A DNA stretch of 64,000 bases from a virus: positions 23,154-87,153 of IMG/VR virus record IMGVR_UViG_3300007734_000759; one strand, given 5' to 3'. Below are positions 8,342 through 38,563 of the stretch, piece by piece. Under the pieces are notes generated by a model. It was not told where the DNA came from and did no database searches. It saw nothing but the letters and a program-made list of their open reading frames with translations. Position numbers and translations under genes: made by a program. The stretch's first letter is position 1, and each line of letters begins with the position of its first letter.

Positions 8342-8800
8342 ATGTGGTTATATAAAGATAAAGAGGTTGCATCAATTGAGGATATGCCTCAAGGTACTAT
8401 AGGTTTTATTTACAAGGTTACTCATAAAACGACAAACAAATCGTATATTGGTAAAAAGGTTTTACAACATACTCTAAAAAAGAAACTTACAAAAAAAGAG
8501 CTTGCTGAATTAACAGGACCAGGCAAGAAACCAACTTTCAAAAGAGTGAGTAAGGAATCCGATTGGAAAACATATTATGGATCTTCTAAACCTCTATTAG
8601 CAGTACTAAAAGAAGAAGGATCTGAAAACTTTACAAGAGAGATTATTAAGTACGTTCATACAAAGAAACAACTAACCTATTTTGAAACCAAGTACCTTTT
8701 CTCATACGGAGTACTAGAATACCCAGATCAATACTTCAATGATAACGTACTAGGTAAGTTTTATACAAAAGATTTGACATCGTTGGAGATTGACGATTAA
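8342..8800 (+). CDS. GIY-YIG endonuclease (Seg/DenA-like, catalytic domain only)
   Basis: GFIYKVTHKTTNKSYIGKK motif, downstream YYGSS and conserved Glu/Asn (FETKY, YFNDN). Confidence 0.75.
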   Translation: MWLYKDKEVASIEDMPQGTIGFIYKVTHKTTNKSYIGKKVLQHTLKKKLTKKELAELTGPGKKPTFKRVSKESDWKTYYGSSKPLLAVLKEEGSENFTREIIKYVHTKKQLTYFETKYLFSYGVLEYPDQYFNDNVLGKFYTKDLTSLEIDD

Positions 8801-8813
8801 TTGTGTATATTAT
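8782..8813 (+). promoter_or_regulatory. Bacteroidota sigmaA-like promoter GTTG-N20-TATATTAT before primase
   Basis: Same 20-nt spacing as the sites at 59804 and 61577; resembles the TTTG/TAnnTTTG consensus. Confidence 0.5.
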
Positions 8814-8816
8814 AGC

Positions 8817-9752
8817 ATGGTTAATCAGGTTTTGATAGGTTTAGTAGATAAAGTACTGGGAACAGGAAAACCCACTGCTCGTAATAATCGAGCATACACT
8901 TGCCCTTTCTGTAATCACCACAAACCTAAGTTTGAAGTTAATTTCACACCAAACGAAAAGAATCAATATCCATACAATTGCTGGGTATGTGGAGTGAAAG
9001 GAAGATCGTTGGTAAACTTATTTAGAAAAGTAAATGCATCAATTGCTCAACTTGAGGAATTAGGTTTACTACTTAAAGTAAAAGTAACAAACGACCAATC
9101 TCAAACTCAAACTCTCAAAATACAATTACCAAAGGAATACAAAGCGTTATCATCGGTTTCTAAAGGAGATATTGTAGCAAGGCATGCAATAAGCTATTTA
9201 AAGAGGAGAGGCCTTAATAAGCATGATATTCACAAGTATAGTATAGGGTATTGCAGCAGTGGTCAATATGCAAATATGATCATTATTCCTTCCTACGACA
9301 ATACTGGAGAATTAAACTACTTCATTGCAAGAAACTTTGATCAAAACTCCCCAGTCAAGTATAAGAATCCACCAATATCAAAAGACATTATTGCATTTGA
9401 GTTATTTGTTAATTGGAATTTACCAATAGTAATTTGCGAAGGAGCATTTGATGCCATAGCAATAAAAAGGAATGTAATTCCACTATTCGGAAAGATTATA
9501 TCAACTACATTAATGAAGAAGCTTGTAACTTCACAGGTAGATAAAATATACATTGCATTAGATAAGGACGCACAAAAGCAAGCACTACAACATTGTCAAC
9601 AACTTCTAGATTTAGGAAAGGAAGTTTACTTGGTTGACATGGAAGACAAAGATCCAAGTGAGATGGGCTTTGAGAATTTTACTAAACTAATTCAAACCAC
9701 TTTGCCGGTAGACTACTACGATCTCATGCAGAGAAAACTCCAAATGATATGA
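8817..9752 (+). CDS. dnaG: DNA primase (Zn finger + TOPRIM)
   Basis: CPFC...CWVC zinc finger; VICEGAFDA and IALDKDA TOPRIM motifs; ATG 8817 preferred over TTG 8790. Confidence 0.85.
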   Translation: MVNQVLIGLVDKVLGTGKPTARNNRAYTCPFCNHHKPKFEVNFTPNEKNQYPYNCWVCGVKGRSLVNLFRKVNASIAQLEELGLLLKVKVTNDQSQTQTLKIQLPKEYKALSSVSKGDIVARHAISYLKRRGLNKHDIHKYSIGYCSSGQYANMIIIPSYDNTGELNYFIARNFDQNSPVKYKNPPISKDIIAFELFVNWNLPIVICEGAFDAIAIKRNVIPLFGKIISTTLMKKLVTSQVDKIYIALDKDAQKQALQHCQQLLDLGKEVYLVDMEDKDPSEMGFENFTKLIQTTLPVDYYDLMQRKLQMI

Positions 9753-10543
9753 GTATAACTAAAGGAATGAATGTTCTAACAGAGCATAAGAAGAAGAAAA
9801 TTAACTTCGATGCTCCGTTGAAGCAAATAAACTTCTTAGACAGGAGAGTTTACAAAAGAGCTGAAGGAGTGTATTATCCATCAGTAACTACCATTCTAAA
9901 CTACATGCCAAAGAATAATTTCTTTATGACATGGTTGAAGGATGTAGGGCATAATGCTGATCTAATCGCAAGGAGAGCAGCTGAGGAAGGTACACAAGTA
10001 CATAAAGCAATTGAAGAGTTAGTAGAAGGGAATGAAATATCTTGGATTGACGATTACGGTAATGCTAAGTATAATGAGAATGTATGGGGAATGATATTGA
10101 AGTTTGCTGAGTTTTGGAATAACCATAAACCTAAATTAATTTCCTCAGAAGAATTTGCGTATTCCGACGAACATCAATTTGCAGGTACAGCAGACTTGGT
10201 AGTTGAAATGGATGGAGAGACTTGGTTACTAGATATTAAGACATCCAACGCATTACATAAGACTTATGACATGCAACTTGCAGCTTATGCAAAAGCACTG
10301 AAGGAAACTAGAAACCTCGAGATACAACGCACAGGAGTAATTTGGTTAAAATCTTCTAAAAGACAGACATCAAATAAACCAGGAGTGTATCAAGGTAAAG
10401 GTTGGGAGATTAAAATAGTAGATGAAATCGAATACAATTTTGACTTATTCCAGACAGTTTACAAACTTTACAAACTAGAAAACCCAACAACAGAACCAAT
10501 TTACAGTTCATATCCTACCACGATTTCTTTATCTTTAGAATAG
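9749..10543 (+). CDS. PD-(D/E)xK phage exonuclease
   Basis: PSVTTIL, GTQVH, FAGTADL, LDIKTS and QLAAYA motifs. Confidence 0.8.
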   Translation: MSITKGMNVLTEHKKKKINFDAPLKQINFLDRRVYKRAEGVYYPSVTTILNYMPKNNFFMTWLKDVGHNADLIARRAAEEGTQVHKAIEELVEGNEISWIDDYGNAKYNENVWGMILKFAEFWNNHKPKLISSEEFAYSDEHQFAGTADLVVEMDGETWLLDIKTSNALHKTYDMQLAAYAKALKETRNLEIQRTGVIWLKSSKRQTSNKPGVYQGKGWEIKIVDEIEYNFDLFQTVYKLYKLENPTTEPIYSSYPTTISLSLE

Positions 10544-10551
10544 ATATTTAT
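10544..10551 (+). promoter_or_regulatory. ATATTTAT putative late-promoter motif
   Basis: GATATTTATTACTAAAA upstream of ATG 10564. Confidence 0.55.
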
Positions 10552-10563
10552 TACTAAAACAGA

Positions 10564-11526
10564 ATGATTAAGCTATTATCGTTATTTAAGGATGTTATCC
10601 AAGAGGGAGGGAATGTTTTTGGTACAACTGATCGCATTAAAAGAGAAGATATACCACCTACTCTTGATAGGTTTGTAGAAGAATTAGGTAAGATTTTTCC
10701 ACAAAAGAAAAATACTTTTAAATTTCAAACCCTAGGATCTGTAGGACAGAAAGATGAATCAGGAGATATAGACTTAGGATATGATGGTAATAACCTTACG
10801 AAAGACGGAAAAGCTGATTTAGAAGGTTGGAACATCGATCCACAAGAGTTTCAAGAAACTTTTGATCGTATTAGAAAAAGAGTTAGATCGGCAACAGAAG
10901 AACAATCAACTAAACGAGCAATGCTTGAGCTGATTGCAAAACAAGTAATAGAAGCTCCAGGACCAATTAAAGCTGACATGAAAGCGGCAGGTAATGGTTC
11001 ACTATTCTTCGAGTTTCCTCAGTTCGATCCTTCTGGAAACGAATTGGATAAGCATGTACAAATCGACATCAATGTAGGTGATTTAGATTGGCTGAAGTTC
11101 TCGTATTATTCTAAAGGATACACAGGAAATATAAAAGGGTTGCATAGAACACAACTACTAGTAGCTTTGTTTAAAAATAAAGATTTAATTTTCAATCACA
11201 ATCTAGGAGTAAAAGATAAAGAAGGAAATGTATTAGCTAGAAATCCCCAACAAGTTCTAGATTTACTTAATAAAATTTATGGAACTAACATCTCTGAGGA
11301 TATAATTTACGACTACTCAGAGTTAATGGATTACCTACAAGCAAACCTACCTGAATCAGAACTCAATTCAATTTACGATATATACTTAAAAATCCTAGAC
11401 TCAACTAGAGCAGATATACCACAACACTTACAAGATTATTGGATTAAAAACCAAGAAAGGTTAGGCCTTAGAGGTAAGTTTTTACCAGACGATTCGAATC
11501 TAACAAAATATAAAATAGAAGCATGA
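10564..11526 (+). CDS. Pol-beta-superfamily nucleotidyltransferase-like protein with putative capsid-targeting leader
   Basis: LGSVGQKDESGDIDLG motif and third Asp in HVQIDINV; leader MIKLLSLFKDVIQE. Confidence 0.6.
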   Translation: MIKLLSLFKDVIQEGGNVFGTTDRIKREDIPPTLDRFVEELGKIFPQKKNTFKFQTLGSVGQKDESGDIDLGYDGNNLTKDGKADLEGWNIDPQEFQETFDRIRKRVRSATEEQSTKRAMLELIAKQVIEAPGPIKADMKAAGNGSLFFEFPQFDPSGNELDKHVQIDINVGDLDWLKFSYYSKGYTGNIKGLHRTQLLVALFKNKDLIFNHNLGVKDKEGNVLARNPQQVLDLLNKIYGTNISEDIIYDYSELMDYLQANLPESELNSIYDIYLKILDSTRADIPQHLQDYWIKNQERLGLRGKFLPDDSNLTKYKIEA

Positions 11527-13325
11527 GCGGTTCAGCAGGAGGACAAAGAATTTCACGAGCAGCAGTAGAAGCTACGGTCAAGGATTATATCGATAGAGTT
11601 CTTTCTAAATTCAAAGGATTCAAATCAGCAAAAGTATCCGGATCATATAATTACAGCGATAAACAAGACTTTGGCGATCTTGATCTAATTGTCTTTATTG
11701 AAGGAGATGATAAAAAACAAGTAAAAGATGCTCTTGCTAATTATTTACAAAGTCTACCCGATGATGTAATAGTTCCTTTTAAGAGTGAAAAGTACGCAGG
11801 GAAGAAACTTCTCAAACCAGGAGAGCTTGTAACCGTTTTATATCCAATAGCAGGAGTGCCAGGAGAATTTGTACAAATTGATAACATAGTAGCAATCTCA
11901 CAACAGGAAGAGCAGTTTAAACAGACCTTCTTGGATGTACCTGCTGCAACTCAAGGTTTAATTTTAGGACTAGTAAAAGCAGCAACTGTTGAGGAAGATC
12001 CACAACAAATCTTTAAAAGATTAGGAATAACAGATGTACCAACTCCTGAAGAAAATCAAGAATACGATTTCAATTTAAGTGGAGATAAATTATCACTTAG
12101 ATTAGTAACACTGGGAGATGGTTTTAAGGAGTTAGGTAGAGAAGTAGTTTGGACATCTCAAAATTGGAGCGATGTCGAGAAGCTGCTTTCAAATTATGAT
12201 TTAAACGTACCTTTTGAGGATCTACTTAAACAAGTAAAATCTAATCTGTCAACAGAACGAGGTAAGAATAGAGTAAAAGGAATTTTTAGGTCAATGGTTT
12301 CGGTTAAGAGTGGTGAGGTTGGAACTCCAAAAGGAGATGATAAGGAAAAAGCACTTACACAAGTAGCAGCTTTAGAAGGTAAGTATTCACAACTTACATT
12401 AGAATTAATTAAACCTTTCTTAGGTGAGCAAGAAGAATCACCACAATCAATCGCAGTATTTCCAGGAGCATTTAAACCACCTCATAGATCACACTTCGAA
12501 GTTATCCAAAAAGTAGCTCCAATGGTGGATGTTGTGAAAGTATACGTATCTAAGCAGCCAAGAGGAGGAGGGAAAGAGGTAACAATAACGCAAGATCAAG
12601 CATTAAAGGTCTGGGATATATATAAAAATTATCTACCAAACAACGTAGAGATTATACCAGCAACTAATGCAACCCCTGTTTTAGACGCGTATCAGGAGAT
12701 AGAAGCACATCCTAACAATCAATACTTAGCTATCTATGGAAAAGGTGAGGAAGGGCGCTGGAAAGCTGTTGAAAAGGATCGTAACAAGTATGGACATGTT
12801 AAAACTGTAAACTTAGGAGATATTGAGGGAGTATCTGCAACAAAGATTAGAACCTTACTAGCACAAGGAGATGATGCCCAACTTATTGAGTATTTACCTA
12901 GCATAAGTGAAGAAGACGCTTTAGAAGTTTTACACATATTACTTGGTACAGTAAGAGAGTTTGTTACACGTAAGGATTTAGAGGATGTAGAGCAAGTAGC
13001 TGATACAGAATTAGCTCCCGTAGACGTAACATTTGATAGACATTTTACAGATAGAGTAAACGATCCGAGAAACACTCCAGAAATCTCTAAAGAGGAGTTA
13101 ATAGACTTTTTTAAAAAACTAGCCAAGAAGCAGGGAGCTCTTAAATCTCTATTGAATAAAGACAGTGAAGTAGTTGCCAAAGATATGCAAAGAGATTTAA
13201 ACACTCCAATTATCGCTACACAAAAAGATAAATCAGGGGTTAAGCAAATAGCACCTAAAACTATCATGCGTAAGAAAAACTTCAATACTCCAAATAAAAC
13301 TATATTTGTAGAGAAGAAAAAATAA
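11523..13325 (+). CDS. Multidomain protein: Pol-beta-like NTase + HxGH-type nucleotidyltransferase + C-terminal unknown domain
   Basis: SGSYNYSDKQDFGDLDLIV and FVQIDNI; VFPGAFKPPHRSH and GVSATKIR; C-terminal FDRHFTDRVNDPRN domain. Confidence 0.65.
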   Translation: MSGSAGGQRISRAAVEATVKDYIDRVLSKFKGFKSAKVSGSYNYSDKQDFGDLDLIVFIEGDDKKQVKDALANYLQSLPDDVIVPFKSEKYAGKKLLKPGELVTVLYPIAGVPGEFVQIDNIVAISQQEEQFKQTFLDVPAATQGLILGLVKAATVEEDPQQIFKRLGITDVPTPEENQEYDFNLSGDKLSLRLVTLGDGFKELGREVVWTSQNWSDVEKLLSNYDLNVPFEDLLKQVKSNLSTERGKNRVKGIFRSMVSVKSGEVGTPKGDDKEKALTQVAALEGKYSQLTLELIKPFLGEQEESPQSIAVFPGAFKPPHRSHFEVIQKVAPMVDVVKVYVSKQPRGGGKEVTITQDQALKVWDIYKNYLPNNVEIIPATNATPVLDAYQEIEAHPNNQYLAIYGKGEEGRWKAVEKDRNKYGHVKTVNLGDIEGVSATKIRTLLAQGDDAQLIEYLPSISEEDALEVLHILLGTVREFVTRKDLEDVEQVADTELAPVDVTFDRHFTDRVNDPRNTPEISKEELIDFFKKLAKKQGALKSLLNKDSEVVAKDMQRDLNTPIIATQKDKSGVKQIAPKTIMRKKNFNTPNKTIFVEKKK

Positions 13326-13328
13326 TAA

Positions 13329-13625
13329 ATGTCTCAAACGATATTTCTTGATTGGAATGATGACCGGGTAGGAACTTGGGATGGTAACGACTTTGTATGG
13401 GAGTTTGTTGCTATTGTTATTCCCGATACTATTCCAACAACTGGAGGTGGTAGTTATGATGAGAGTGGAGCAAGAAAAAAACGTAGAACACGGATCAAAC
13501 TAATCACTTTCATTGATAACAAAGAGATAACAGAGGTAAAAGAAATAAAAGAATTTCCAAGTATATTTATACAAGACGCAAAGTTCGTCCAAAAAGATGG
13601 TATTAAACTTGAAATCAAACTGTAA
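13329..13625 (+). CDS. Hypothetical protein
   Basis: 98 aa ORF, tightly packed with its neighbours. Confidence 0.5.
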   Translation: MSQTIFLDWNDDRVGTWDGNDFVWEFVAIVIPDTIPTTGGGSYDESGARKKRRTRIKLITFIDNKEITEVKEIKEFPSIFIQDAKFVQKDGIKLEIKL

Positions 13626-14200
13626 TGTATATAGTATATCTTGACCAACCTAAGACATTTGAATGCTCAATCCAATTAGAAGGAGCTTCTATTTCAAATT
13701 CGAAAGCTAGGTTGATAATGGAAACCAAAGAAGGTCTTAATTTTATTTTCAATGGAAAAATAACAGACGACGGTAAGGTTTCTATTCCTATTACAAAACT
13801 AAAAAACATCATCAAAGAAGAGCAGAGAGGAAAAATTATGCTAGAAGTCATTGCAGATGACGTGTACTTCTCACCTTGGTCTTCTGATTTTGAAACAGCT
13901 CTAATGAAAAAGGTCCAAGTTACAGTAAACGAGGAGATAACCAAACCATCTAAACCAAGCGTATCAGTTACAATACACGAGCCTGCAAAACAACCTATTA
14001 GAAAAGTTGACCATTTGTTAGAAATTGTTTATATTCTAGCTAAGAATAAAATTACAATTCTAAACATTAAAGAAAATCAAAATAGGTTAAGTACTATAAT
14101 TGATAAGTACGTAGTTAATAAGAAACTCGATAAATCACAACTAAACGAAATTTTAACAAAACTACCTCAAAAATTATACGAGCTAACCTACAGTAAATAA
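13625..14200 (+). CDS. Hypothetical protein
   Basis: 191 aa ORF, stop/start overlap. Confidence 0.55.
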   Translation: MYIVYLDQPKTFECSIQLEGASISNSKARLIMETKEGLNFIFNGKITDDGKVSIPITKLKNIIKEEQRGKIMLEVIADDVYFSPWSSDFETALMKKVQVTVNEEITKPSKPSVSVTIHEPAKQPIRKVDHLLEIVYILAKNKITILNIKENQNRLSTIIDKYVVNKKLDKSQLNEILTKLPQKLYELTYSK

Positions 14201-14207
14201 CTAAGGT

Positions 14208-16268
14208 ATGCCTAATCCGCTATATAATCTTTTTGGTAAGAAAGTTTCCGATACCTACCACTCACTTCTACAATCAGGATCGGATGGTAAATTTTATGAT
14301 GGGGATGGAAATGAGGTTACTATTAATGCCACCATTCCTGATATCTATGTTCTAACAAGTTCATTTAATAATTTTACATCTTCCTATAATACCGGATCAT
14401 TTACCGGTTCTTTTACTGGTAGCTTATTAGGAACTGCATCTTATGCATTAAATGGAGGAGTAACTCAAATCACAGCAGGAACAGGTGTTATTATTTCTCC
14501 ACCTACTGGATTAGGCAATGTAACGGTAACATCGTTAGCACCAAGCTATAACACAGCAACAGGATCTTACGGATCTTTTTTCAGTACTGGATCACAAACA
14601 GCAGTACTAGCGACAGAAATATACTCAATGTCTATTTCAACAACAGACATTTCAAATGGAGTATACATAAGCGGATCAGGAGATCCATATAACACCTTCG
14701 TTAAGTTTACTAATGCAGGAACTTACAACATTCAATTTTCAGCACAGTTCTCCAATTCAGGAAACAACCCATCAGATGTAATTATTTGGTTGAGAAAAAA
14801 TGATGCATCATCTGTTAATGATTTAGCTGATAGTTCTGGAATATGTACTGTACCTGCTAAAAAAGGAACAGTTCCCGGTCAGCTTATAGCAAGTTGGAAT
14901 TACCTTATTAACGTAGTAGCAGGAGATTTTATACAATTACTATGGCATACTGCCGATGCAAACGTAATTACATTAGAAACTATAGCTGCAGGAACAAATC
15001 CAGCCCACCCAAGAACACCAGCACTTATCTTAACTGCCCAAAGAGTAGATACTTTTCTAAGCAACACAGGATCGTTTAGTGGATCGTTTACTGGAGAATT
15101 TACAGGAAGCTTATTGGGAACAGGAAGCTGGGCTGTAAGTGCAAGCCAAGCAGTAACATCTTCGTATTCTAATACATCACAAACTACGTCAACAATCACA
15201 GTAAACTCTTTTGGAAGTAATGTAGAGAGTTATCTACTGATGTCAAACGTAGTTGCATTACCTGGTGTAGCAATAGGAGGTGATGCTGATTTAAGATATA
15301 ATGCATCAACTAATAGACTCTCTGTAGGATCTATATCAGCTACAAGTTTAACAGGCTCTCTACAAGGAACAGCTAGCTGGGCAGATAATGCAACAACAGC
15401 GAGTTATATATTAAATGCTGTTAGTAGTTCATTCGCATCAACTGCTTCATTTGCTCCAAACTATCTGTTAGTAAGCAGCACTAGCTCAATGCTAGCTCCA
15501 TACGTCTTGAGTTCTCAAACATCTAGTTTTGTAACAAATTCTCAAACAGGATCATTTATAACAACAGCATCAGTTAGTTTAAATACGATTACTTTTACAA
15601 AAGCAAACGGTACAACTTTCCCGATCACCGTAGACACAGGATCAGGAGGCGGAAGTGGAGCAGGATTTCCATTTTCAGGTAGTGCTGTAATAACTGGATC
15701 ATTATTTATATCAGGTTCAGCAGGATTAACTATTACAGGTAGCGGTATACTTACCGCAGGTGCAGTTGGAGGTGATGAAGGAGGGGAAATTTTACTAGGT
15801 AAAGCTATCACCAATACTACATTAACAGGTTCCGGAGTTACAATTGATGTATACCAGAATAGACTTAGGATATTTGAACAAGGAGGTTCAAATAGAGGAG
15901 GATATTTCGATATTACAGACTTAGCCACAGGAGTAGGTACAAACTTATCAACCGCAGAAGTAACACTAAACAGACAAGCAGCTAGCTATGTTTTGGCACT
16001 TACGGACATAGGTAAATTAGTAGAGATGAACGTAGGTACTGCCAATACATTAACAGTACCGTCGAGTTCAACTGCCAACTTTCCAATTGGAGCTAAAATT
16101 GATATAGCACAATACGGAGCTGGTCAAACGACAGTAACTACCGGAAGTGTTAACGTACTATTACGAAGTGCAGGTAATGCGACTAAGCTAGCTGCCCAAT
16201 ATGCAGGGGCAACTGTAGTAAAAATAGCTACAGACGAATGGTACTTGTTTGGGAATATAACAGTATAA
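14208..16268 (+). CDS. Tail fibre / fibre-like virion protein
   Basis: Repeated TGSFTGSFTGSLLGTAS-type units, G/S/T-rich; C-terminal domain ends KIATDEWYLFGN. Confidence 0.65.
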   Translation: MPNPLYNLFGKKVSDTYHSLLQSGSDGKFYDGDGNEVTINATIPDIYVLTSSFNNFTSSYNTGSFTGSFTGSLLGTASYALNGGVTQITAGTGVIISPPTGLGNVTVTSLAPSYNTATGSYGSFFSTGSQTAVLATEIYSMSISTTDISNGVYISGSGDPYNTFVKFTNAGTYNIQFSAQFSNSGNNPSDVIIWLRKNDASSVNDLADSSGICTVPAKKGTVPGQLIASWNYLINVVAGDFIQLLWHTADANVITLETIAAGTNPAHPRTPALILTAQRVDTFLSNTGSFSGSFTGEFTGSLLGTGSWAVSASQAVTSSYSNTSQTTSTITVNSFGSNVESYLLMSNVVALPGVAIGGDADLRYNASTNRLSVGSISATSLTGSLQGTASWADNATTASYILNAVSSSFASTASFAPNYLLVSSTSSMLAPYVLSSQTSSFVTNSQTGSFITTASVSLNTITFTKANGTTFPITVDTGSGGGSGAGFPFSGSAVITGSLFISGSAGLTITGSGILTAGAVGGDEGGEILLGKAITNTTLTGSGVTIDVYQNRLRIFEQGGSNRGGYFDITDLATGVGTNLSTAEVTLNRQAASYVLALTDIGKLVEMNVGTANTLTVPSSSTANFPIGAKIDIAQYGAGQTTVTTGSVNVLLRSAGNATKLAAQYAGATVVKIATDEWYLFGNITV

Positions 16269-16272
16269 CGGC

Positions 16273-17091
16273 ATGATAGGAACAGTAGCAAGTAATCAAT
16301 TAACTCAAGAATATATTCAAATATTGAGTCAATCCAACGTTGCTCTTTCTGGCGTACGGCCTACCTATGTCAATCAATTAAAGCAAGATACATTAGTTAG
16401 ATCCCTAAAACAAGATGGATCTTGGAATCTTATAGACGTTTTGTATATATTTGCTAATGATGAATCAACAGGTAATTTTGCCTTACTGAATTGGACTAAT
16501 CCATCTCTATATTCATTAACAAAAATTAATTCACCTGTGTTTTTTTCAAATAGAGGGTATAGTAGTGCAAACTCTACTAACTATCTTTCATCATCATGGG
16601 CACCATCCAATGGAGTTAATTTTCAACAAAACAGTGCTTCAATAGGGGGCATGGTGTATAATACACCAACTGCTAACAGCTCAAGTGCTTTAATAGGAAC
16701 AAATGGAGCAACCCAAAATGCTGTATTTCTAGTACCCAGGACAGTAAGTACGTATAGAACATCTCTAAACCAAGCCACGTTGAATGCTAGTACTATTCCT
16801 CAAAACTTCATGGCAAGGAGAGTGATAGGAGCATTCAGATCACAATCACTAAACTACGATCAATTTTACCCATCTTCAAGTACTGTAGATGCGTTTATTA
16901 GACCAACAACCAACATGACAAGCTCCGCTCCTACAACACAACAAGTCAATATATTATCAGCTAATCAGAATGGTACTAGACTATACGGAGGAGATTTAAC
17001 AGCATCAATGGCCTGGTTTGGAGGATACGGAATTGTAAATAGATTAGCAACATTTACTGGTTCAATGACAACTTATATAAATTCAATTTAA
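16273..17091 (+). CDS. Putative fibre-associated structural protein
   Basis: N/S/T-rich beta pattern, directly follows the fibre gene. Confidence 0.4.
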   Translation: MIGTVASNQLTQEYIQILSQSNVALSGVRPTYVNQLKQDTLVRSLKQDGSWNLIDVLYIFANDESTGNFALLNWTNPSLYSLTKINSPVFFSNRGYSSANSTNYLSSSWAPSNGVNFQQNSASIGGMVYNTPTANSSSALIGTNGATQNAVFLVPRTVSTYRTSLNQATLNASTIPQNFMARRVIGAFRSQSLNYDQFYPSSSTVDAFIRPTTNMTSSAPTTQQVNILSANQNGTRLYGGDLTASMAWFGGYGIVNRLATFTGSMTTYINSI

Positions 17092-17314: not shown

Positions 17315-17683
17315 ATGTTCAAACATCATTTAGCCTCCCTGACAAAACACATGGTAGAATGCGGAATGCCCATTACTCCACTACCATCTGTGCAATTTAT
17401 ACACAACGACGAGGAGAATGCACAAGATATCCTAGGTAGAACAGCATATTACGAACCACAAAGTAAATGCATTGTACTTTACACTAAAGGAAGACATCCT
17501 AAGGATATACTAAGATCTTTTGCACATGAGATGATCCACCACATGCAAAATATAGAAGGAAGATTGAATCACATAGATACAACTAACGTAAACGAAGATC
17601 AAAATTTATATGAACTAGAGTTGGAAGCATACTCAAAAGGTAATATGTTATTTAGAGAGTGGGAAAACTCTTGCAGAGCATGA
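17315..17683 (+). CDS. HExxH zinc-metallopeptidase-like protein
   Basis: LRSFAHEMIHH with downstream ELEAY. Confidence 0.6.
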   Translation: MFKHHLASLTKHMVECGMPITPLPSVQFIHNDEENAQDILGRTAYYEPQSKCIVLYTKGRHPKDILRSFAHEMIHHMQNIEGRLNHIDTTNVNEDQNLYELELEAYSKGNMLFREWENSCRA

Positions 17684-18192
17684 TTAAATTAGAACAACTA
17701 CTAAAAGAAATACAACAACAGGATTATCGTATTTATTGTGATCTTGATGGAGTCTTGAGTAATTTTGACGGTAGATTTAAAGAACTCGTAGGCGATTCGC
17801 CCGACAATTACAAAGATCAATACGGCAAGAAAGCGTTTTGGAGAGCTATAGATGATCAAGGTGAGGAGTTCTGGTCAGGAATGAAACCAATGCCAGATGC
17901 TAAAAAGCTATGGAATTACATAGGCAAGTATAAACCCGAACTACTATCAGCACCATCGAGCAAGCAATATTCACACACAGGTAAACAACTATGGGTAGAT
18001 CAACACCTACCAGGTGTAACTCTGAACCTAAAACCCGCAACTGAGAAGCATTACTACTGCACAGGACCTTATGACATCTTAATAGACGACAGAGCAGACA
18101 CGATTCAAAGATGGAATAATGCAGGTGGTGTAGGAATTCTACATAAAAATGCACAAGATACAATAAACCAACTAGCTGAGCTAGGTTTATGA
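17680..18192 (+). CDS. HAD-family 5'(3')-deoxyribonucleotidase with putative capsid-targeting leader
   Basis: IYCDLDGVL, ELLSAP and ILIDDR motifs; ATG 17680 overlaps the upstream TGA; leader MIKLEQLLKE. Confidence 0.8.
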   Translation: MIKLEQLLKEIQQQDYRIYCDLDGVLSNFDGRFKELVGDSPDNYKDQYGKKAFWRAIDDQGEEFWSGMKPMPDAKKLWNYIGKYKPELLSAPSSKQYSHTGKQLWVDQHLPGVTLNLKPATEKHYYCTGPYDILIDDRADTIQRWNNAGGVGILHKNAQDTINQLAELGL

Positions 18193-22268: not shown

Positions 22269-22925
22269 ATGAAGCTAATAGACATACTAAAGGAATCAAT
22301 CCAACCGGCTAAGAAGGGTTGTTCATGCGGTTGTAACTCGTGTGACAACGCTCCAAAGCTAAAAGACACATCAACCATCATATCGGAAGGTTTACAATAC
22401 CATATCGCGAATAAAAAACCTATTACCGATACGTTATATAGGTACGGTAGCGATGCTCACATTAAGCTTATTATTGAAACTCGTCAACTATTAGAAGAAG
22501 GTCGTATTGAGCTTAGTGGAGATGATTTAGAACTATTCGAAGAGAGTGACTTAGGTAGAATAGGAATCTACGAAGGACAAAAAGTCCTTTTAGATTACCC
22601 ACTACTAGAAAACGAAGAAATCGACGAAGCTAAGCACGGCGGAAAAGATGTACAACTCAACAAACCTAGAAGAGGTGGTCCTAAAAAGTTTTTTGTTTAC
22701 GTTCGCAAACCTGGAGGAGGAATTAAGAAGGTAGCATTTGGAGCTAAAGAAGGAGGAGGTAACCTAGCTGTTAAACTCAACGATAGAGAAGCAAGACAAG
22801 CTTTTGCTAAGAGACATAAATGTGCACAGGCAAACGATAAAACAACTCCAAAGTATTGGAGCTGCAGACTTCCAAGATACGCAAAAGCATTAGGATTAAA
22901 ATCAAACTTTACAGGATTCTGGTAA
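22269..22925 (+). CDS. Modular putative internal head protein
   Basis: Leader MKLIDILKE, CSCGCNSC cluster, basic C-terminal module after IDE. Confidence 0.5.
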   Translation: MKLIDILKESIQPAKKGCSCGCNSCDNAPKLKDTSTIISEGLQYHIANKKPITDTLYRYGSDAHIKLIIETRQLLEEGRIELSGDDLELFEESDLGRIGIYEGQKVLLDYPLLENEEIDEAKHGGKDVQLNKPRRGGPKKFFVYVRKPGGGIKKVAFGAKEGGGNLAVKLNDREARQAFAKRHKCAQANDKTTPKYWSCRLPRYAKALGLKSNFTGFW

Positions 22926-22935
22926 AAAATAAAAT

Positions 22936-23493
22936 ATGGCAAATAAACTAACACAAATGAACGAAATGTTGGCTGCTTCCAATGAAGCAATCACAACCCC
23001 AATGACTCTTGCACCTGAGGTGGTTAAGATGTTAATAGAGAGAATTGGAGATGAGTATACAGCACACTACTTCTACAGAAACGCTGCAAACTGGTGCAAA
23101 GAGAAAGCATATTTCAGAGCAGCAGCTTTTTTTGATGGAGAAGCATCAAACGAATTAGAGCATGCCAAGTTAGTGCAAGATTATTTAGTGGATTGGAACA
23201 CTCTTCCAGTTATTCCACCCGTATCAATGGTACCACAATTTTGTAACCTAATCGATATTGTAAACAAAGCATACGACTTAGAGTACGGCTTGTATTTGAA
23301 GTACAACGAAAACTCAGCAGCAGTATTTCCAGCAGATCTAGCTACATTCGACTTCCTACAAGAACTAAGAATCGGACAGAGAAAATCAGTAGCAGAGTAC
23401 TCAGATCTACTAAATGCTGCACAGCTAGTAAATGTATCAAATAACTTTGAGGTTCTATACTTCGAACAGACATACTTTCCTGAAGTAGGATAA
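22936..23493 (+). CDS. Ferritin-like protein
   Basis: DEYTAHYFY, NELEHA, DLEY and FDFLQ...Q four-helix ferroxidase-type motifs. Confidence 0.75.
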   Translation: MANKLTQMNEMLAASNEAITTPMTLAPEVVKMLIERIGDEYTAHYFYRNAANWCKEKAYFRAAAFFDGEASNELEHAKLVQDYLVDWNTLPVIPPVSMVPQFCNLIDIVNKAYDLEYGLYLKYNENSAAVFPADLATFDFLQELRIGQRKSVAEYSDLLNAAQLVNVSNNFEVLYFEQTYFPEVG

Positions 23494-24278
23494 TGACTAA
23501 TCTTACTGACATATTAAAAGAAATTCTTCTTGATGAGAAAAAGAAGAGAGACAGATGTCTACGTATTGCAGATCGTAAGTATGATAAACCATCTGCATAT
23601 AAATCAGGTGCTGTAGTTAAATGTCGTCAAGGTAAGATTTGGAAAGATTTGAAAGAGAATTGGCAAGATACTTCTTGGGAAAATGAAAAAGGGCAAAAAA
23701 TAACCTTACCGCAGTTATTAGATGTTATAAAAAACTACCCTGTTAAAAATATTCCTGTAAAAGACGTAGAAAAAATAGTTATCAGAAAAGACACAGGAGG
23801 TATAGAATCTGATAGATTGGACAAAGCGGATACTCAACATCCAATTATAATTGTTGTAGACGATAATAATAATCTTAAATATATTCTAGACGGTAACCAC
23901 AGAGCCAATAAGGCCATAGATAATGAATTAAAAACCATTCCAGCTAAACTAGTAAACATTAAAGAATTACCACAAGACTTTCAAAATGTTTTAACTGAAG
24001 AAGAATCACTACGAAAGTGGTTCGGACGCAAAGGAGCACCTGGCAAATCGAAAGGTTGGGTAGATTGTAATACTTGTCGTGATGGTAAATGTAAACCGTG
24101 TGGCAGACAGGAAGGAGAGAAAAGATCAAAATATCCATCATGCAGACCAACACCAGCAGCATGTAAACAAAAAGGTAAAGGTAAGACGTGGGGTAAAACT
24201 AAGGAAAACCTAGACCCTAAAACATTCAAAGATACAGGAAAAGCCGCACCATACGGTTCAGGATATAAACCAGCATGA
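23493..24278 (+). CDS. Modular protein with ParB-N-like domain flanked by Cys-rich modules
   Basis: HPIIIV...YILDGNHRA; leader MTNLTDILKE; CNTC...CKPC...SCRP module. Confidence 0.6.
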   Translation: MTNLTDILKEILLDEKKKRDRCLRIADRKYDKPSAYKSGAVVKCRQGKIWKDLKENWQDTSWENEKGQKITLPQLLDVIKNYPVKNIPVKDVEKIVIRKDTGGIESDRLDKADTQHPIIIVVDDNNNLKYILDGNHRANKAIDNELKTIPAKLVNIKELPQDFQNVLTEEESLRKWFGRKGAPGKSKGWVDCNTCRDGKCKPCGRQEGEKRSKYPSCRPTPAACKQKGKGKTWGKTKENLDPKTFKDTGKAAPYGSGYKPA

Positions 24279-24279
24279 T

Positions 24280-24969
24280 ATGATAACTCTATTAGAAATA
24301 TTAAAAGAAGCATCTAAGGAAAAAACTGAACGTTTAGAAAAACAAGATGTAAAATTTAAAATACCAAAATTAAATTATTCATACTCTTCTCTTCAACCGT
24401 ACATAGATAAGGAGACTATGGAAGAGCATTTCAATAAACATTTTAAAGGATACACGGATAAACTTAATGCTGAATTAGATGAAAAATCTATCAGAGTAAA
24501 AGCTGAAAATCAAATTGAAGCTATTCAAATAATACTAGGTAAATATCCTAAAAATGATATTATTAGAAATAACGGCGGCGGTTTTTACAATCACGTCTTG
24601 TATTTTGAAAACATTACACCCGACTATAAGGCACCTTCAACTAAGTTTAAAAACTTATTAGAAAAAAACTTTAATTCATTTTCCGAATTTAAAGAAAAAT
24701 TTAAAGAAGCTGGTTTAAAGCAATTTGGATCAGGTTGGGTATTTTTAATTCAAAAAGGAAATAAATTAGTCATAGAATCATATGCTAATCAAGATAATCC
24801 GTATCTTGATAAAAATTTTAAAGGCAGAATTTTAATTGCTATGGATGTTTGGGAACATGCTTACTACCTAAAACATAAATCCCAAAGAGGAAATTATATT
24901 AATGATTTTTTTAAAGTAGTAGATTACAAAGTAGCTGAAGAAAGATTAGAAATACCAAATACTTTATAA
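24280..24969 (+). CDS. sodA: Fe/Mn superoxide dismutase (Mn-type signature) with N-terminal extension
   Basis: EEHFNKH, NNGGGFYNH, FGSGW, ANQDNP and DVWEHAYY motifs. Confidence 0.92.
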   Translation: MITLLEILKEASKEKTERLEKQDVKFKIPKLNYSYSSLQPYIDKETMEEHFNKHFKGYTDKLNAELDEKSIRVKAENQIEAIQIILGKYPKNDIIRNNGGGFYNHVLYFENITPDYKAPSTKFKNLLEKNFNSFSEFKEKFKEAGLKQFGSGWVFLIQKGNKLVIESYANQDNPYLDKNFKGRILIAMDVWEHAYYLKHKSQRGNYINDFFKVVDYKVAEERLEIPNTL

Positions 24970-34642: not shown

Positions 34643-35269
34643 ATGAGCAAGCAAGTATTAATAGAAACCCAAATCTTTAAACCTAAACCATTAACAATTG
34701 TTGAAGGTGTAGGAGGTACCAAGAACCTTTTGGTAGAGGGTATTCTTGCTACTGCTGAAGTGAAGAATGGCAACGGCCGTTACTATTCAAAAGAGTTGTG
34801 GGATAGAGAGATCGGCAAATACATGGAATTGGTTAGGGAGAGAAGAGCTTGTGGTGAGCTTGATCACCCCGATTCCCAAATTATAAACTTAAAGAACGTA
34901 TCCCACGTTATCACAGATATGTGGTGGGATGGGGATAAGGTAATAGGAAAAATTGAAATCCTACCAACCCCATCAGGAAACATTCTTACATCCTTGTTTG
35001 AAAACAGCATACCAGTAGGAGTATCTTCAAGAGGTATGGGGTCTCTAAAACAAGTAGGAGAAATCATGGAAGTACAAGATGATTTCGAACTCCTATGCTG
35101 GGACTTTGTATCAACACCATCTAACCCAGGATCATACATGGCTCCAGTAGGTAAGATGAGAATGAATGAAGGATTACAAGCTTCACAAGGAAGCACTGAC
35201 AAGTTTGCAAAAGTAAACCAAATCCTCACAGAAATTCTGTGTGCAAACGGTACTTGTCCATTATTTTAA
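34643..35269 (+). CDS. gp21: Prohead core protease (T4 gp21-like)
   Basis: GELDHP, GVSSRGMGS and WDFVSTPS motifs. Confidence 0.92.
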   Translation: MSKQVLIETQIFKPKPLTIVEGVGGTKNLLVEGILATAEVKNGNGRYYSKELWDREIGKYMELVRERRACGELDHPDSQIINLKNVSHVITDMWWDGDKVIGKIEILPTPSGNILTSLFENSIPVGVSSRGMGSLKQVGEIMEVQDDFELLCWDFVSTPSNPGSYMAPVGKMRMNEGLQASQGSTDKFAKVNQILTEILCANGTCPLF

Positions 35270-36853: not shown

Positions 36854-38563
36854 ATGAGCACAATTCAATCATTACTTGAATCAGCTAATCCTTGGAGAAA
36901 CGTACAATCTGACGCTGCAAGATTAGCAACCAAGTGGGCTAAAACTGGCTTGCTTGAAGGCCTAGATGGCGAAATCAATCGTAACAACATGGCTATGATG
37001 CTTGAAAACCAAGCTAAGCAACTTGTTGTTGAATCTTCAACTTCTGGTGGTGGTACCGCAGGTGGTACCTTTACTGCAGGTGTAGGTGAACAGTGGGCTG
37101 GTGTAGCTCTTCCATTGGTACGTAAGGTGTTTGGACAGATCGCTTCTAAGGAGTTCGTTTCTGTTCAACCTATGAACTTGCCATCTGGACTAGTATTCTT
37201 CTTGGATTTCCAATATGGAACTAACAAAAACCCATTCTCTAGCGCAGCAGGAGCCAACTCAGTATTCGGTGGAACTTCAACCCCAGGATCTTCTGCAGGA
37301 TATCCTTTCTCTACCAACAATGCAACCAACGGTTTGTACGGAGCTGGTCGTTACACCTACTCTACTAACTTGACTGGATCTCTATTGGCACAAGCAGCTG
37401 CTACCAACTTAGGTATCACAACTGCATCTGCTACTTGGGCTTCTTTCAACTTCGATGCTGATTTTACATCATCTTTTGGTACTTTTGACGTATACACTCT
37501 TACAAATGCTTCTACCAAACTAGTAAACATGGATAAAGAAGCAGTACGCAGCTTCTACATTTCTGGTTCATACACTGGTGCAACTAAAGCAGGTATCGCA
37601 TTGCCAGCATTCACAACTTATAATGCTACTACTGACGCTTTGTCCTTCATTGTAACTAAGTCAGCTTTCACAGGAGCTACTCCTCTAGCACCTACAGCAT
37701 TTACAGGTTCTTTCATCATCTCCTACTCAATGCAGCCTACTGACAATAAGAGAGGTGATTTTGAAGATACAAACACTACATTGAACCAAGCTTACAACAA
37801 CCCAATTTCTATTCCAGAAATCAACGTTCAGATGCAATCTCAAGCGATCGTTGCTAAAACTAAGAAATTGAAAGCTGTATGGACTCCTGAATTTGCTCAA
37901 GATTTGAACGCTTACCAAAACATTGATGCTGAAGCTGAATTGACTTCAATGATGTCTGAGTACGTTTCTCTTGAGATTGATTTGGAAATCCTAGATATGT
38001 TGATTCAAGATGCTGCTGCTGGTACTGAGTTCTGGTCTGCCGTTAACAACGTAGCTTACGACGGAACAGCTCTTACCACTCTTACCTCTGGTTTCTACAA
38101 CACTCAAGGTCAATGGTTCGCAACTCTTGGTACTAAAGTTCAAAAGCTTTCTAACAAGATTCACCAATTGACTCTTCGTGGTGGTGCTAACTTCTTGGTA
38201 ATGTCTCCAACAGTATCTACTATCTTGGAATCAATTCCTGGATTCGCTGCTGATGTGAACGGTCAAACTGAGAAAATGAACTATGCTTTCGGAGTACAGA
38301 AAGTAGGTCAATTGAACGGTCGCTATAAGGTTTATAAGAACCCATACATGACTGAAAACACAATCTTGGTTGGTTTCCGTGGTTCTCAGTTCTTGGAAAC
38401 TGGTGCTGTATTTGCTCCTTACATTCCATTAATTATGACTCCTCTTGTGTACGATCCAAACACCTTCACTCCACGTAAAGGTCTATTGACTCGCTACGCT
38501 AAGAAGATGTTGCGTCCTGAGTACTATGGTAAGATCTACGTATCTGGCTTAACTACTATCTAA
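36854..38563 (+). CDS. gp23: Major capsid protein (T4 gp23-like)
   Basis: FVSVQPMNLPSGLVFFLDF, KLKAVWTPEFAQDLNAY, APYIPL and FTPRKGLLTRYAKK motifs. Confidence 0.95.
   Translation: MSTIQSLLESANPWRNVQSDAARLATKWAKTGLLEGLDGEINRNNMAMMLENQAKQLVVESSTSGGGTAGGTFTAGVGEQWAGVALPLVRKVFGQIASKEFVSVQPMNLPSGLVFFLDFQYGTNKNPFSSAAGANSVFGGTSTPGSSAGYPFSTNNATNGLYGAGRYTYSTNLTGSLLAQAAATNLGITTASATWASFNFDADFTSSFGTFDVYTLTNASTKLVNMDKEAVRSFYISGSYTGATKAGIALPAFTTYNATTDALSFIVTKSAFTGATPLAPTAFTGSFIISYSMQPTDNKRGDFEDTNTTLNQAYNNPISIPEINVQMQSQAIVAKTKKLKAVWTPEFAQDLNAYQNIDAEAELTSMMSEYVSLEIDLEILDMLIQDAAAGTEFWSAVNNVAYDGTALTTLTSGFYNTQGQWFATLGTKVQKLSNKIHQLTLRGGANFLVMSPTVSTILESIPGFAADVNGQTEKMNYAFGVQKVGQLNGRYKVYKNPYMTENTILVGFRGSQFLETGAVFAPYIPLIMTPLVYDPNTFTPRKGLLTRYAKKMLRPEYYGKIYVSGLTTI

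What the first reader, a model, noticed from the sequence alone, without database searches (positions are those of the whole stretch)
10564..13325. Tandem pair of divergent Pol-beta-type nucleotidyltransferases
Seen: two overlapping genes (ATGA) each carry GS-x(7-9)-GD[IL]D and a later VQID Asp, the Pol-beta NTase triad. The first has the cargo-like leader and a late motif upstream. They sit next to primase and exonuclease but do not look like replication enzymes. Established: this superfamily includes CD-NTases, tRNA-repair/CCA enzymes, protein AMPylases and toxin NTases. Inference: a (possibly heteromeric) injected enzyme that modifies host RNA or protein, repairs cleaved tRNA, or interferes with nucleotide second-messenger immunity. 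The substrate cannot be read from sequence.
Basis: partly seen in the sequence, partly recalled or inferred. Interest (0 to 1): 0.75.

Follow-up and report, generated by a model that had tools for sequence, protein, structure and literature searches.

The report
Head-targeted tandem mini-PolX-like phage enzymes
Two coupled late genes of a 159-kb T4-like phage encode a diverged pair of miniature DNA-polymerase-X-like enzymes, one with a T4-style "load into the head" tag and the other fused to an NAD-synthesis-like enzyme; this is probably an uncharacterised nucleic-acid repair kit, not a signalling or protein-modifying enzyme.

Summary
ORF1 (10564-11526, 320 aa) and ORF2 (11523-13325, 600 aa) overlap by ATGA. 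Both carry GS-x7/9-GDxD and VQID, and these residues are invariant in homologs.

ORF2 adds two more parts:
- A phage-specific C-terminal domain that recurs on other phage enzymes.

ORF1's 14-residue leader ends IQE|GGN. Across the family the domain starts either M-GGNVF or directly after [LIV]-x-E. ORF2's domain behaves the same way in six natural fusions (…xE|SGxAGG). The phage encodes a T4 gp21-type head protease. Its SOD and its NT5C nucleotidase carry look-alike leaders.

ORF2 follows ORF1 in 78 of 78 related loci, behind a primase and a PD-(D/E)XK exonuclease. No ligase was found in the genome.

Best reading: a head-loaded fill-in or end-repair module. This is inferred, not shown.

The scan has already noted mini-PolX plus ligase-like modules in other phages. 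This is a ligase-less variant of that theme.

The parts
10543..10551 (+). Late-promoter-like motif GATATTTAT, 12 nt upstream of the ORF1 start
   Evidence: 9 copies against 1.4 expected; ATATTTATW 18 against 5.0, with 16 of 18 on the + strand ahead of structural genes. Promoter function is inferred.
10564..10605 (+). ORF1 leader (residues 1-14, ending I-Q-E): CTS-like propeptide with a putative gp21-type cleavage site before G15
   Evidence: The leader pattern is conserved. Every ORF1-like domain that is not at the N-terminus is preceded by [LIVFT]-x-E, and the others start M-GGNVF. The AF2 model has low pLDDT here (51-69). Look-alike leaders occur on the SOD and NT5C. A gp21-type protease is encoded in the window.
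10606..11325 (+). ORF1 mini-PolX-like core (residues 15-254): Gly-rich N-terminus GGNVFG, palm with G58 S59 / D68 D70 / D168, thumb with K191-L198 (KGLHRTQL)
11326..11523 (+). ORF1 C-terminal helical subdomain (residues 255-320), invariant P286
   Evidence: AF2 helices 251-300; conservation. No informative fold match was found, so its function is unknown.
11523..12371 (+). ORF2 N-terminal PolX-like domain (residues 1-283): invariant start M-SGSAGG, G40 S41 / D52 D54 / D120, and a basic conserved helix region R250 K252 K270 K274
   Evidence: hhalign against the ORF1 family: prob 90.8%, E 1.2e-6, 189 columns. Foldseek: Pol lambda and Pol beta at E about 7e-7 over about 225 columns. 14 of 20 relatives hit Pfam DNA_pol_B_palm, best 3.1e-6.
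12372..12440 (+). Low-confidence linker (residues 284-306) containing LIKPFLGE, a leader-like helix ending L-x-E
   Evidence: pLDDT is below 50 at 286-291 and 300-305. The same I/L-x-P-F-L-x-E element forms the N-terminus of HIGH-domain-first relatives such as P0262 and P0244. It is not significant with the ORF1-leader matrix, so this is suggestive only.
12441..12950 (+). HIGH-motif nucleotidyltransferase domain (residues 307-476): G315-AFKPPHRSH-324 and S438-ATKIR-443
12954..13322 (+). C-terminal phage-specific domain (residues 478-600, DRHF-x-DRVNDPRN motif)
   Evidence: PHROG 23027 at 2.4e-19 and PHROG 14518. Stand-alone copies occur in Melnitz, phiM12-type and Paraglaciecola phages. By structure it recurs fused to CTP_transf_like, PAP2, DUF6267 and GH19 in phage proteins.
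9749..10543 (+). PD-(D/E)XK (Cas4/RecB-like) exonuclease, conserved upstream partner
   Evidence: Pfam PDDEXK_1 at 1e-8 and PHROG 298 at 4.6e-44. It lies upstream of ORF1 in nearly all 80 loci and in 34-39% identical relatives. An ESM-Atlas cluster combines PDDEXK_1 with an ORF1-like fold.
8790..9752 (+). DnaG-type primase, conserved upstream partner
   Evidence: Pfam DNAG_N and Toprim; PHROG 47 at 4e-43; synteny.
17315..17683 (+). HExxH metallopeptidase-like module. It is a separate gene here but fused to the C-terminus of ORF2 in most relatives.
   Evidence: hhalign of the ORF2-family profile against a free-standing copy: 99.3%. tblastn synteny. Weak Pfam hits to DUF6782 and Peptidase_M91.
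17680..18192 (+). NT5C-type 5'(3')-deoxyribonucleotidase with an ORF1-like leader, if started at the ATG at 17680
   Evidence: Pfam NT5C at 6.7e-8. Leader matrix score 12.8 bits, the best in the window after ORF1 itself. It lies downstream of the module in many loci.

Best explanation
ORF1 and ORF2 are translationally coupled late genes. They encode two anciently diverged paralogs of a miniature family-X-polymerase-like nucleotidyltransferase, with palm plus thumb and no fingers or 8-kDa domain, like ASFV Pol X.

ORF2 continues into two more parts:
- A HIGH-motif (PPAT/NMNAT-like) nucleotidyltransferase.
- A phage-specific domain that looks like an adaptor.

Together with the upstream primase and PD-(D/E)XK exonuclease, and the HExxH and NT5C genes further downstream, they form a conserved and frequently re-fused module.

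ORF1 is made with a 14-residue T4-CTS-like propeptide. I infer three steps:
1. The propeptide loads ORF1 into the prohead.
2. The phage's gp21-type protease cuts after IQE, exposing the conserved N-terminus GGNVF.
3. The enzyme leaves the head with the DNA.

Its most likely chemistry is two-metal nucleotidyl transfer onto a nucleic-acid 3'-OH. That means gap filling or end extension of phage DNA at or just after injection, downstream of the exonuclease. The HIGH-motif enzyme would supply an adenylylated cofactor or intermediate for the sealing step: NAD+ for the host ligase, or a 5'-adenylylated end.

What is shown: fold, catalytic residues, paralogy, linkage, the conserved E|G and E|S junctions, and the presence of the protease.
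What is inferred: packaging, cleavage, substrate and repair role.

My odds for each step:
- PolX-like pair: about 0.85.
- Head cargo for ORF1: about 0.55.
- DNA fill-in or repair role: about 0.4.
For: Fold:
- The Foldseek PDB top 50 are all Pol beta or Pol lambda. AFDB and ESM-Atlas neighbours carry DNA_pol_B_palm and DNA_pol_B_thumb.
- The ORF2 N-domain matches Pol lambda at E 7e-7. 14 of 20 relatives hit Pfam DNA_pol_B_palm. It is paralogous to ORF1.
- Catalytic residues are invariant.

Linkage:
- ORF2N follows ORF1 in 78 of 78 loci that have room downstream.
- Natural fusions permute HIGH-NTase, HExxH, PolX-A and PolX-B.
- An Atlas cluster combines PDDEXK_1 with an ORF1-like fold.

Cargo:
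- [LIVFT]-x-E precedes GGNVF in all 16 internal copies and in nearly all of the short leaders; otherwise the protein starts M-GGNVF.
- [LIV]-[NT]-E precedes SGxAGG in 6 of 6 fusions.
- A Peptidase_S77 (gp21) protease, a Gp23 capsid protein and a T4 portal are in the window.
- Similar leaders sit on the SOD and NT5C.
- A late motif lies upstream.
- T4 precedent: a 10-residue CTS, cleavage after Glu with determinants at P3 and P1, and use of the CTS to load diverse proteins (PMC9026906).
- Concept precedent: ASFV packages its PolX, ligase and AP endonuclease in the virion (PMC12172490).
Against: - No activity, virion proteome or cleavage has been measured.
- The only cultured relative (immuto) starts M-GGNVF with stop codons just upstream, so it has no leader. 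ORF2 has none either. Packaging is therefore not universal, and the enzymes must also work in the cytoplasm.
- Fusions joined by protease sites may reflect a shared destination (the head) and not a shared pathway.
- No ligase, AP endonuclease or glycosylase-type partner was found in the genome, so a complete repair pathway cannot be written.
- The substrate of the HIGH domain is unresolved, because PPAT and NaMNAT tie.
- RNA substrates are not excluded.
Confidence: 0.45

Rival explanations
1. Cytoplasmic replication or repair accessory, not cargo. The pair works in the infected cell with the adjacent primase and exonuclease, for example in primer removal and gap filling on the lagging strand, or in recombination-dependent replication. 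The leader would then be an N-terminal helix or a signal for some other location.
For: - Primase, exonuclease and ORF1 stay syntenic down to 34-39% identity.
- The immuto homolog and 32 cluster representatives have no leader.
- ORF2 has no leader.
- The family-X fold suggests gap filling.
- Immuto-like phages already carry unusual extra polymerases in replication contexts (PMC11348598).
Against: - This does not explain why E always directly precedes GGN or SGS in leaders and fusions, nor why unrelated enzymes (SOD, NT5C) share the leader.
- The genes sit behind a late, structural-type motif and between fibre-like genes.
Confidence: 0.22
2. RNA-directed enzymes. The two NTases tail or repair RNA 3' ends, for example tRNA cleaved by anticodon nucleases, or they tag host transcripts. 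The HIGH enzyme would take part in 5'-end activation or capping.
For: - Some ORF2N relatives weakly hit the MTPAP-like palm.
- Established knowledge: some family-X enzymes such as Pol mu and TdT readily use rNTPs.
- Earlier scan notes describe similar phage kits as possible RNA repair systems (leads only).
Against: - No PAP/OAS1-type or CCA body/tail domain is present. RNA NTases align over only about 100 residues, whereas PolX enzymes cover palm plus thumb.
- No RNA ligase or PNK partner was found.
- The conserved partners are a DNA primase and a DNA-type exonuclease.
Confidence: 0.12
3. Small-molecule or anti-defence enzymes. In one version the HIGH domain is a true NMNAT that rebuilds NAD+ against NAD-depleting defences. 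In another, the Pol-beta domains make or cap signalling nucleotides, like CD-NTases.
For: - Immuto's homolog is annotated as NMNAT/NadR.
- There are weak NMNAT HMM hits.
- Many fused relatives carry a GRFQP…GH motif, which I recall, without testing it here, as typical of NadM-type NMNATs.
Against: - The genome has no NAMPT partner.
- CD-NTase matches are weak and cover the palm only.
- The PolX-type thumb is conserved in both paralogs.
- The strict fusion with PolX-like domains and a nuclease is not expected for a metabolic NMNAT.
Confidence: 0.1

Closest known systems
African swine fever virus DNA polymerase X (O174L, 174 aa; PDB 5hr9)
   Same: - Minimal family-X architecture: palm plus thumb only, no fingers or 8-kDa domain.
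- GS…DxD…D catalytic set.
- Made late and packaged in the virion with other repair enzymes (PMC12172490).
   Different: - Only about 12% identity, and no sequence-level detection.
- ORF1 has an extra 65-residue helical C-terminal subdomain, a conserved Gly-rich N-terminus and a cleavable-looking leader.
- It comes as two paralogs, and no AP endonuclease or ligase partner was found in the phage.
PgVPolX of Phaeocystis globosa virus (PolX core fused to an NAD+-dependent ligase; PMC5537341)
   Same: A viral PolX-type enzyme fused to a second nucleotidyl-transfer enzyme that uses the adenylate/NAD chemistry needed for sealing. Fill, lyase and seal activities were shown to act together.
   Different: - PgVPolX keeps the 8-kDa lyase domain (Lys101) and a true LigA-type ligase.
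- Here the fused enzyme is a HIGH-motif PPAT/NMNAT-like Rossmann protein, not a ligase.
- No activity has been measured here.
T4 capsid-targeting-sequence cargo (IPI-III, Alt) processed by gp21 (PMC9026906)
   Same: - Short N-terminal amphipathic propeptide ending hydrophobic-x-Glu.
- A gp21-family protease (Peptidase_S77) encoded beside the scaffold and a gp23-type capsid protein.
- Late expression signal.
- The same tag on unrelated enzymes.
   Different: - The cargo would be nucleotidyltransferases, an SOD and a nucleotidase, not small basic internal proteins or an ADP-ribosyltransferase.
- Targeting and cleavage are untested in this phage lineage.
Mini-PolX plus ligase-like (DUF6267) pairs noted earlier by this scan in other large phages
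   Same: A stripped-down PolX-like enzyme with head-targeting-like leaders, tightly linked or fused to a second nucleotide-transfer enzyme. An Atlas cluster carrying DUF6267 is a structural neighbour of ORF1 (TM 0.58).
   Different: This genome has no DUF6267 and no other recognisable ligase. The partner here is a second PolX-like domain fused to a HIGH-motif enzyme.
Bacterial PPAT (CoaD) and NaMN/NMN adenylyltransferases (NadD, NadM, NadR)
   Different: - 17-21% identity, and the window's own protein scores below the Pfam and NCBIfam thresholds.
- It is embedded in a multidomain phage protein.
- The acceptor substrate is unknown.

Membership tests
Pol-beta-like nucleotidyltransferase superfamily | hG[GS]-x(7-13)-[DE]h[DE]h motif plus a third carboxylate on a later strand | tested here: met
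   ORF1 G58 S59…D68 x D70…D168 and ORF2 G40 S41…D52 x D54…D120. These residues are invariant, or for ORF2 S41 at least 90% conserved, in 55, 35 and 20 homologs.
Pol-beta-like nucleotidyltransferase superfamily | Alpha/beta palm fold | tested here: met
   The AF2 models (pLDDT 94 and 83) align with many solved superfamily members.
Family X DNA polymerases | PolX-type palm (Pfam PF14792) | tested here: inconclusive
   14 of 20 ORF2N relatives hit PF14792 (best 3.1e-6), and P0243 passes the gathering score (25.7 against 25). The window's own ORF2 and all ORF1 relatives do not. Structural matches are PolX-first.
Family X DNA polymerases | Thumb subdomain following the palm | tested here: met
   The ORF1 model aligns with Pol beta 142-335, Pol lambda 385-575 and all of ASFV PolX. 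Atlas neighbours carry DNA_pol_B_thumb. This rests on predicted structure only.
Family X DNA polymerases | Fingers and 8-kDa (HhH, dRP-lyase) domains of canonical cellular members | tested here: not met
   The alignments start at the palm (Pol beta residue 142). Only about 8 residues precede the first palm helix. ASFV PolX lacks these domains too, so this excludes the canonical form, not the minimal one.
Family X DNA polymerases | Templated dNTP incorporation | not testable with these tools
   This needs primer-extension assays.
CD-NTase / cGAS-OAS | Palm plus C-terminal helical lobe that cages two NTPs; cyclic or 2'-5' products | tested here: inconclusive
CCA-adding enzymes / terminal uridylyl- and poly(A) polymerases | Palm followed by a PAP/OAS1 substrate-binding or neck/body/tail domain | tested here: inconclusive
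HIGH-motif (cytidylyltransferase-like, PF01467) nucleotidyltransferases | (H/T)xxH motif after strand 1, an ISxTxxR-type motif, and a Rossmann-like fold | tested here: met
NMNAT or PPAT specifically | Acceptor-specific pocket and activity | tested here: inconclusive
T4-type CTS head cargo | Short N-terminal propeptide ending (L/I)-x-E, with a gp21-family protease in the genome | tested here: met
   The leader ends I-Q-E before G15. Peptidase_S77 at 2e-29.
T4-type CTS head cargo | Physical presence in virions in processed form | not testable with these tools
   This needs virion mass spectrometry.

The most novel reading that the evidence does not exclude
ORF2 is a ligase-independent sealing enzyme.
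1. Its HIGH-motif domain adenylylates a 5'-phosphate nucleic-acid end. This is the same chemistry as NMN + ATP -> NAD+, and it would produce AppDNA.
2. The adjoining PolX-like active site then catalyses attack of the 3'-OH on that activated phosphate, with AMP as the leaving group where a polymerase would release PPi.

Together with ORF1 (gap filling) and the upstream exonuclease, this would make a complete, head-delivered cut-fill-seal machine in a phage that has no recognisable ligase. A side possibility is that the strictly conserved free N-terminal Gly or Ser amine acts as an AP/dRP-lyase nucleophile, as in T4 endonuclease V or Fpg.
Probability: 0.08. Interest if true: 0.9.

Novelty: new variant of a known kind. 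Interest (0 to 1): 0.62.

Why it matters
- Family-X polymerases are known from cells, giant viruses and ASFV. I found no paper describing one in a tailed phage.
- The nearest predicted viral structures are all "uncharacterized" phage proteins.
- The family is large: ORF1 has 405 cluster representatives at E ≤ 0.001 and 1788 hits among 90%-identity clusters. The ORF1 half is invisible to Pfam and PHROGs.
- If ORF1 is loaded into the head together with an SOD and a nucleotidase, these environmental T4-like phages carry a genome-maintenance kit inside the particle. That would parallel the packaged repair system of ASFV. It would bear on how phages survive UV and oxidative decay in surface waters.
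- The conserved E|GGN and E|SGS junctions give a clean, testable case of polyprotein and cargo processing by a gp21-type protease outside the model phages.
- The constant pairing of PolX-like domains with a HIGH-motif enzyme, in a phage without a ligase, points to chemistry that has not been described.

Tried and rejected
- Complex prediction on ORF1(15-320) plus ORF2(1-290) gave no verdict (score 0.00). It counts neither for nor against binding.
- Sequence-level links to solved PolX structures failed. phmmer and profile HMMs of both families found nothing relevant in the PDB. BLASTP of ORF1 against ORF2 found nothing. Only profile-profile and structural comparison connect them.
- 7-deazaguanine link, suggested by immuto's fully modified DNA (PMC10516641): rejected for this phage, because the genome has no TGT/DpdA-type and no QueC match.
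- NAD+-salvage (NAMPT plus NMNAT) link: no NAMPT.
- 'NMNAT feeds a phage LigA' link: no LigA. There is also no ATP-dependent ligase, DUF6267 or Rnl-type ligase, and no AP endonuclease 2.
- Test of whether the ORF2 interdomain linker is a leader copy: not significant with the ORF1-leader matrix (best 1.7 bits in ORF2, 3.3 bits or less in homolog linkers). Only the motif-level resemblance to the N-termini of HIGH-first relatives remains.
- PADLOC and NCBIfam gave nothing useful for ORF1.
Full report
**Context.** The window lies in a complete 159,435-bp virus record with direct terminal repeats. All genes read on the + strand.
- The head module is T4-type: portal PF07230 (30378-32279), prohead protease Peptidase_S77 (34643-35269, E 2e-29) and Gp23 capsid protein (36854-38563).
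- The nearest cultured relative is Flavobacterium phage vB_FspM_immuto. It has the same local gene order: primase, exonuclease, a 302-aa hypothetical protein, and a 907-aa protein annotated as NMNAT.

**Observation.** ORF1 (10564-11526, 320 aa) and ORF2 (11523-13325, 600 aa) overlap in ATGA.
- They are conserved in diverse homologs. G58, S59, D68, D70, Q166 and D168 of ORF1 are invariant in 55 sequences of 30-82% identity.
- G40, G51, D52, D54, Q118 and D120 of ORF2 are invariant in 35 and 20 sequences; S41 is invariant in the 35 and at least 90% conserved in the 20.

**Fold of ORF1.** No Pfam, PHROG, NCBIfam or PDB sequence search recognises ORF1.
- Its AlphaFold2 model is confident (pLDDT 94, pTM 0.88).
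- An all-against-all structural search puts family-X DNA polymerases on top:
  - Pol lambda 8.4, TdT 8.2, Leishmania Pol beta 8.1, Thermus PolX 8.1.
- The Foldseek top 50 in the PDB are all Pol beta or Pol lambda.
- Named AFDB and ESM-Atlas neighbours are mostly DNA polymerase beta, lambda or X, and carry DNA_pol_B_palm and DNA_pol_B_thumb.
- ORF1 therefore resembles the minimal ASFV-type PolX, with an extra 65-residue helical C-terminal subdomain of unknown role.

**Fold of ORF2.** The model has pLDDT 83 and three parts.
- Residues 1-283 match Pol lambda, Pol beta and PolX (E about 7e-7 over about 225 columns).
  - Fourteen of 20 relatives hit Pfam DNA_pol_B_palm (best 3.1e-6).
  - A profile-profile comparison aligns ORF2 8-241 with ORF1 22-261 (probability 90.8%, E 1.2e-6).
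  - The two genes are therefore old paralogs.
- Residues 307-476 form a HIGH-motif nucleotidyltransferase.
  - The HxxH and SxTxxR motifs are invariant.
  - The acceptor cannot be assigned.
- Residues 478-600 are a phage-specific domain (PHROG 23027, 2.4e-19).
  - By structure it recurs on phage proteins carrying CTP_transf_like, PAP2, DUF6267 or GH19 domains, and it also occurs alone.
  - That pattern fits an adaptor better than a catalytic domain. This is an inference.

**Linkage.**
- In 80 viral loci of 52-90% identity, ORF2N directly follows ORF1 in all 78 that have room downstream. Primase and exonuclease lie upstream in nearly all of them.
- The primase-exonuclease-ORF1 order persists at 34-39% identity.
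- Natural fusions join the same modules in different orders:
  - ORF1 + ORF2N (P0246, 46% identical to ORF2 residues 2-283).
  - HIGH-NTase + ORF1 + ORF2N (P0243).
  - HIGH + HExxH + ORF1 + ORF2N (P0254).
  - ORF1 + HIGH + HExxH (P0290).
- An Atlas cluster combines a PD-(D/E)XK domain with an ORF1-like fold.
- In this phage the HExxH module is a separate gene (17315-17683), followed by an NT5C nucleotidase.

**Leader and processing.** ORF1's first 14 residues are an add-on.
- Thirty-two cluster representatives, and immuto, start M-GGNVF.
- All other complete copies carry either an 8-20-residue leader or a whole N-terminal domain.
- In nearly every short-leader case, and in all 16 internal copies, the residues directly before GGN[VI]F are [LIVFT]-x-E.
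- The ORF2-type domain shows the same thing independently. Unfused it starts M-SGSAGG. In six fusions it is preceded by [LIV]-[NT]-E.
- The mature N-termini would therefore be identical whether they are produced by Met removal or by cleavage after Glu.
- This matches the rule of the T4 gp21 protease, which cuts C-terminal to Glu with determinants at P3 and P1. T4's 10-residue capsid-targeting sequence loads diverse proteins into heads (PMC9026906).
- The window encodes a gp21-family protease.
- A matrix built only from ORF1-family leaders scores three other N-termini:
  - NT5C, started at the ATG at 17680: 12.8 bits.
  - The Mn/Fe-SOD: 11.6 bits.
  - ORF 23493: 6.4 bits.
  - The best of about 18,500 internal positions scores 9.2.
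- The tag is therefore shared by unrelated enzymes.
- ORF1 also sits behind the motif GATATTTAT. That motif is over-represented (9 against 1.4 expected) and lies before the portal, sheath-region and other structural genes.
- Packaging and cleavage remain inferences.
- The leaderless immuto homolog and the leaderless ORF2 show that packaging is not obligatory for function.

**Function.**
- The PolX-type palm and thumb are conserved, the two-metal carboxylates are invariant in both paralogs, and the recurring partners are a DNA primase and a PD-(D/E)XK exonuclease. These point to nucleotide addition at a nucleic-acid 3'-OH, most simply DNA gap filling or end extension.
- ASFV offers the closest concept. 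Its PolX, ligase and AP endonuclease are packaged in the virion, which is thought to allow repair before replication starts (PMC12172490).
- PgVPolX shows that viral PolX enzymes can be fused to a sealing enzyme that uses NAD+ (PMC5537341).
- This genome has no recognisable ligase of four families, no AP endonuclease 2, no NAMPT and no 7-deazaguanine genes.
- The role of the HIGH-motif enzyme is therefore open. It may make NAD+ for the host ligase, or it may adenylylate a 5'-phosphate end directly, which is the same chemistry. It may also do something unrelated.

**Earlier scan notes.**
- Notes on this same window propose the shared leader, the tagged SOD, the late motif and the HxGH domain. 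I tested each of these here, and they hold as observations.
- Notes on other genomes describe mini-PolX plus ligase-like (DUF6267) pairs or fusions with head-targeting leaders in large phages.
- The theme is therefore not new to this scan. The present locus is a ligase-less variant with a duplicated PolX-like domain and a HIGH-motif enzyme.

**Verdict.**
The superfamily, the coupling and the cargo-like tag stand. The fold points to family-X polymerase-like enzymes acting on nucleic-acid ends, not to CD-NTase, AMPylase or CCA-type functions.
- The family is uncharacterised and abundant in metagenomes. The mechanism remains inferred.

Noticed in passing
window 24280-24969: This is an Fe/Mn superoxide dismutase (Pfam Sod_Fe_N and Sod_Fe_C). 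The SOD core starts at residue 25, behind a 24-residue extension. That extension scores 11.6 bits with the ORF1-leader matrix, above every internal position in the window.
   Followed up: partly
window 17659-18192 (likely true start 17680): This NT5C-type deoxyribonucleotidase, if started at the ATG at 17680, begins with a leader very like ORF1's (12.8 bits). The listed GTG start at 17659 is probably wrong.
   Followed up: partly
window 13329-17091: Four genes (98, 191, 686 and 272 aa) separate ORF2 from its HExxH module. The 686-aa protein is fibre-like, with GSFTGS repeats. In immuto and many relatives that module is fused to ORF2 or adjacent to it, so this looks like an insertion of structural genes into the enzyme module.
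   Followed up: no
whole genome G000 (159,435 bp): No match was found to LigA, ATP-dependent DNA ligase, DUF6267 or Rnl-type RNA ligase profiles. This is despite the phage encoding its own primase and exonuclease.
   Followed up: partly
window 8342-8800: This is a SegE-type GIY-YIG homing endonuclease (Pfam, 6e-29). The matching PHROG 447 and the immuto record call the family 'NAD synthetase', which looks like a propagated misannotation.
   Followed up: no
window 22269-24278 and 40976-41329: Further ORFs begin with M-x-x-L-x-x-I/L-L/T-K-E-like N-termini. ORF 23493 scores 6.4 bits, while 22269 and 40976 score lower. They may belong to the same tagged set.
   Followed up: partly
ORF2 residues 478-600 (window 12954-13322): By predicted structure, this roughly 120-residue domain is attached to very different phage enzymes: cytidylyltransferase-like, PAP2 phosphatase, DUF6267 and GH19. 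It also occurs as a free small protein in Melnitz, phiM12-type and Paraglaciecola phages.
   Followed up: partly
L005:8921-9571: In a 39%-identical relative, the ORF1 homolog is followed by a free-standing HExxH-module protein and there is no ORF2. The PolX-B/HIGH gene is therefore not universal outside the immuto-like clade.
   Followed up: partly
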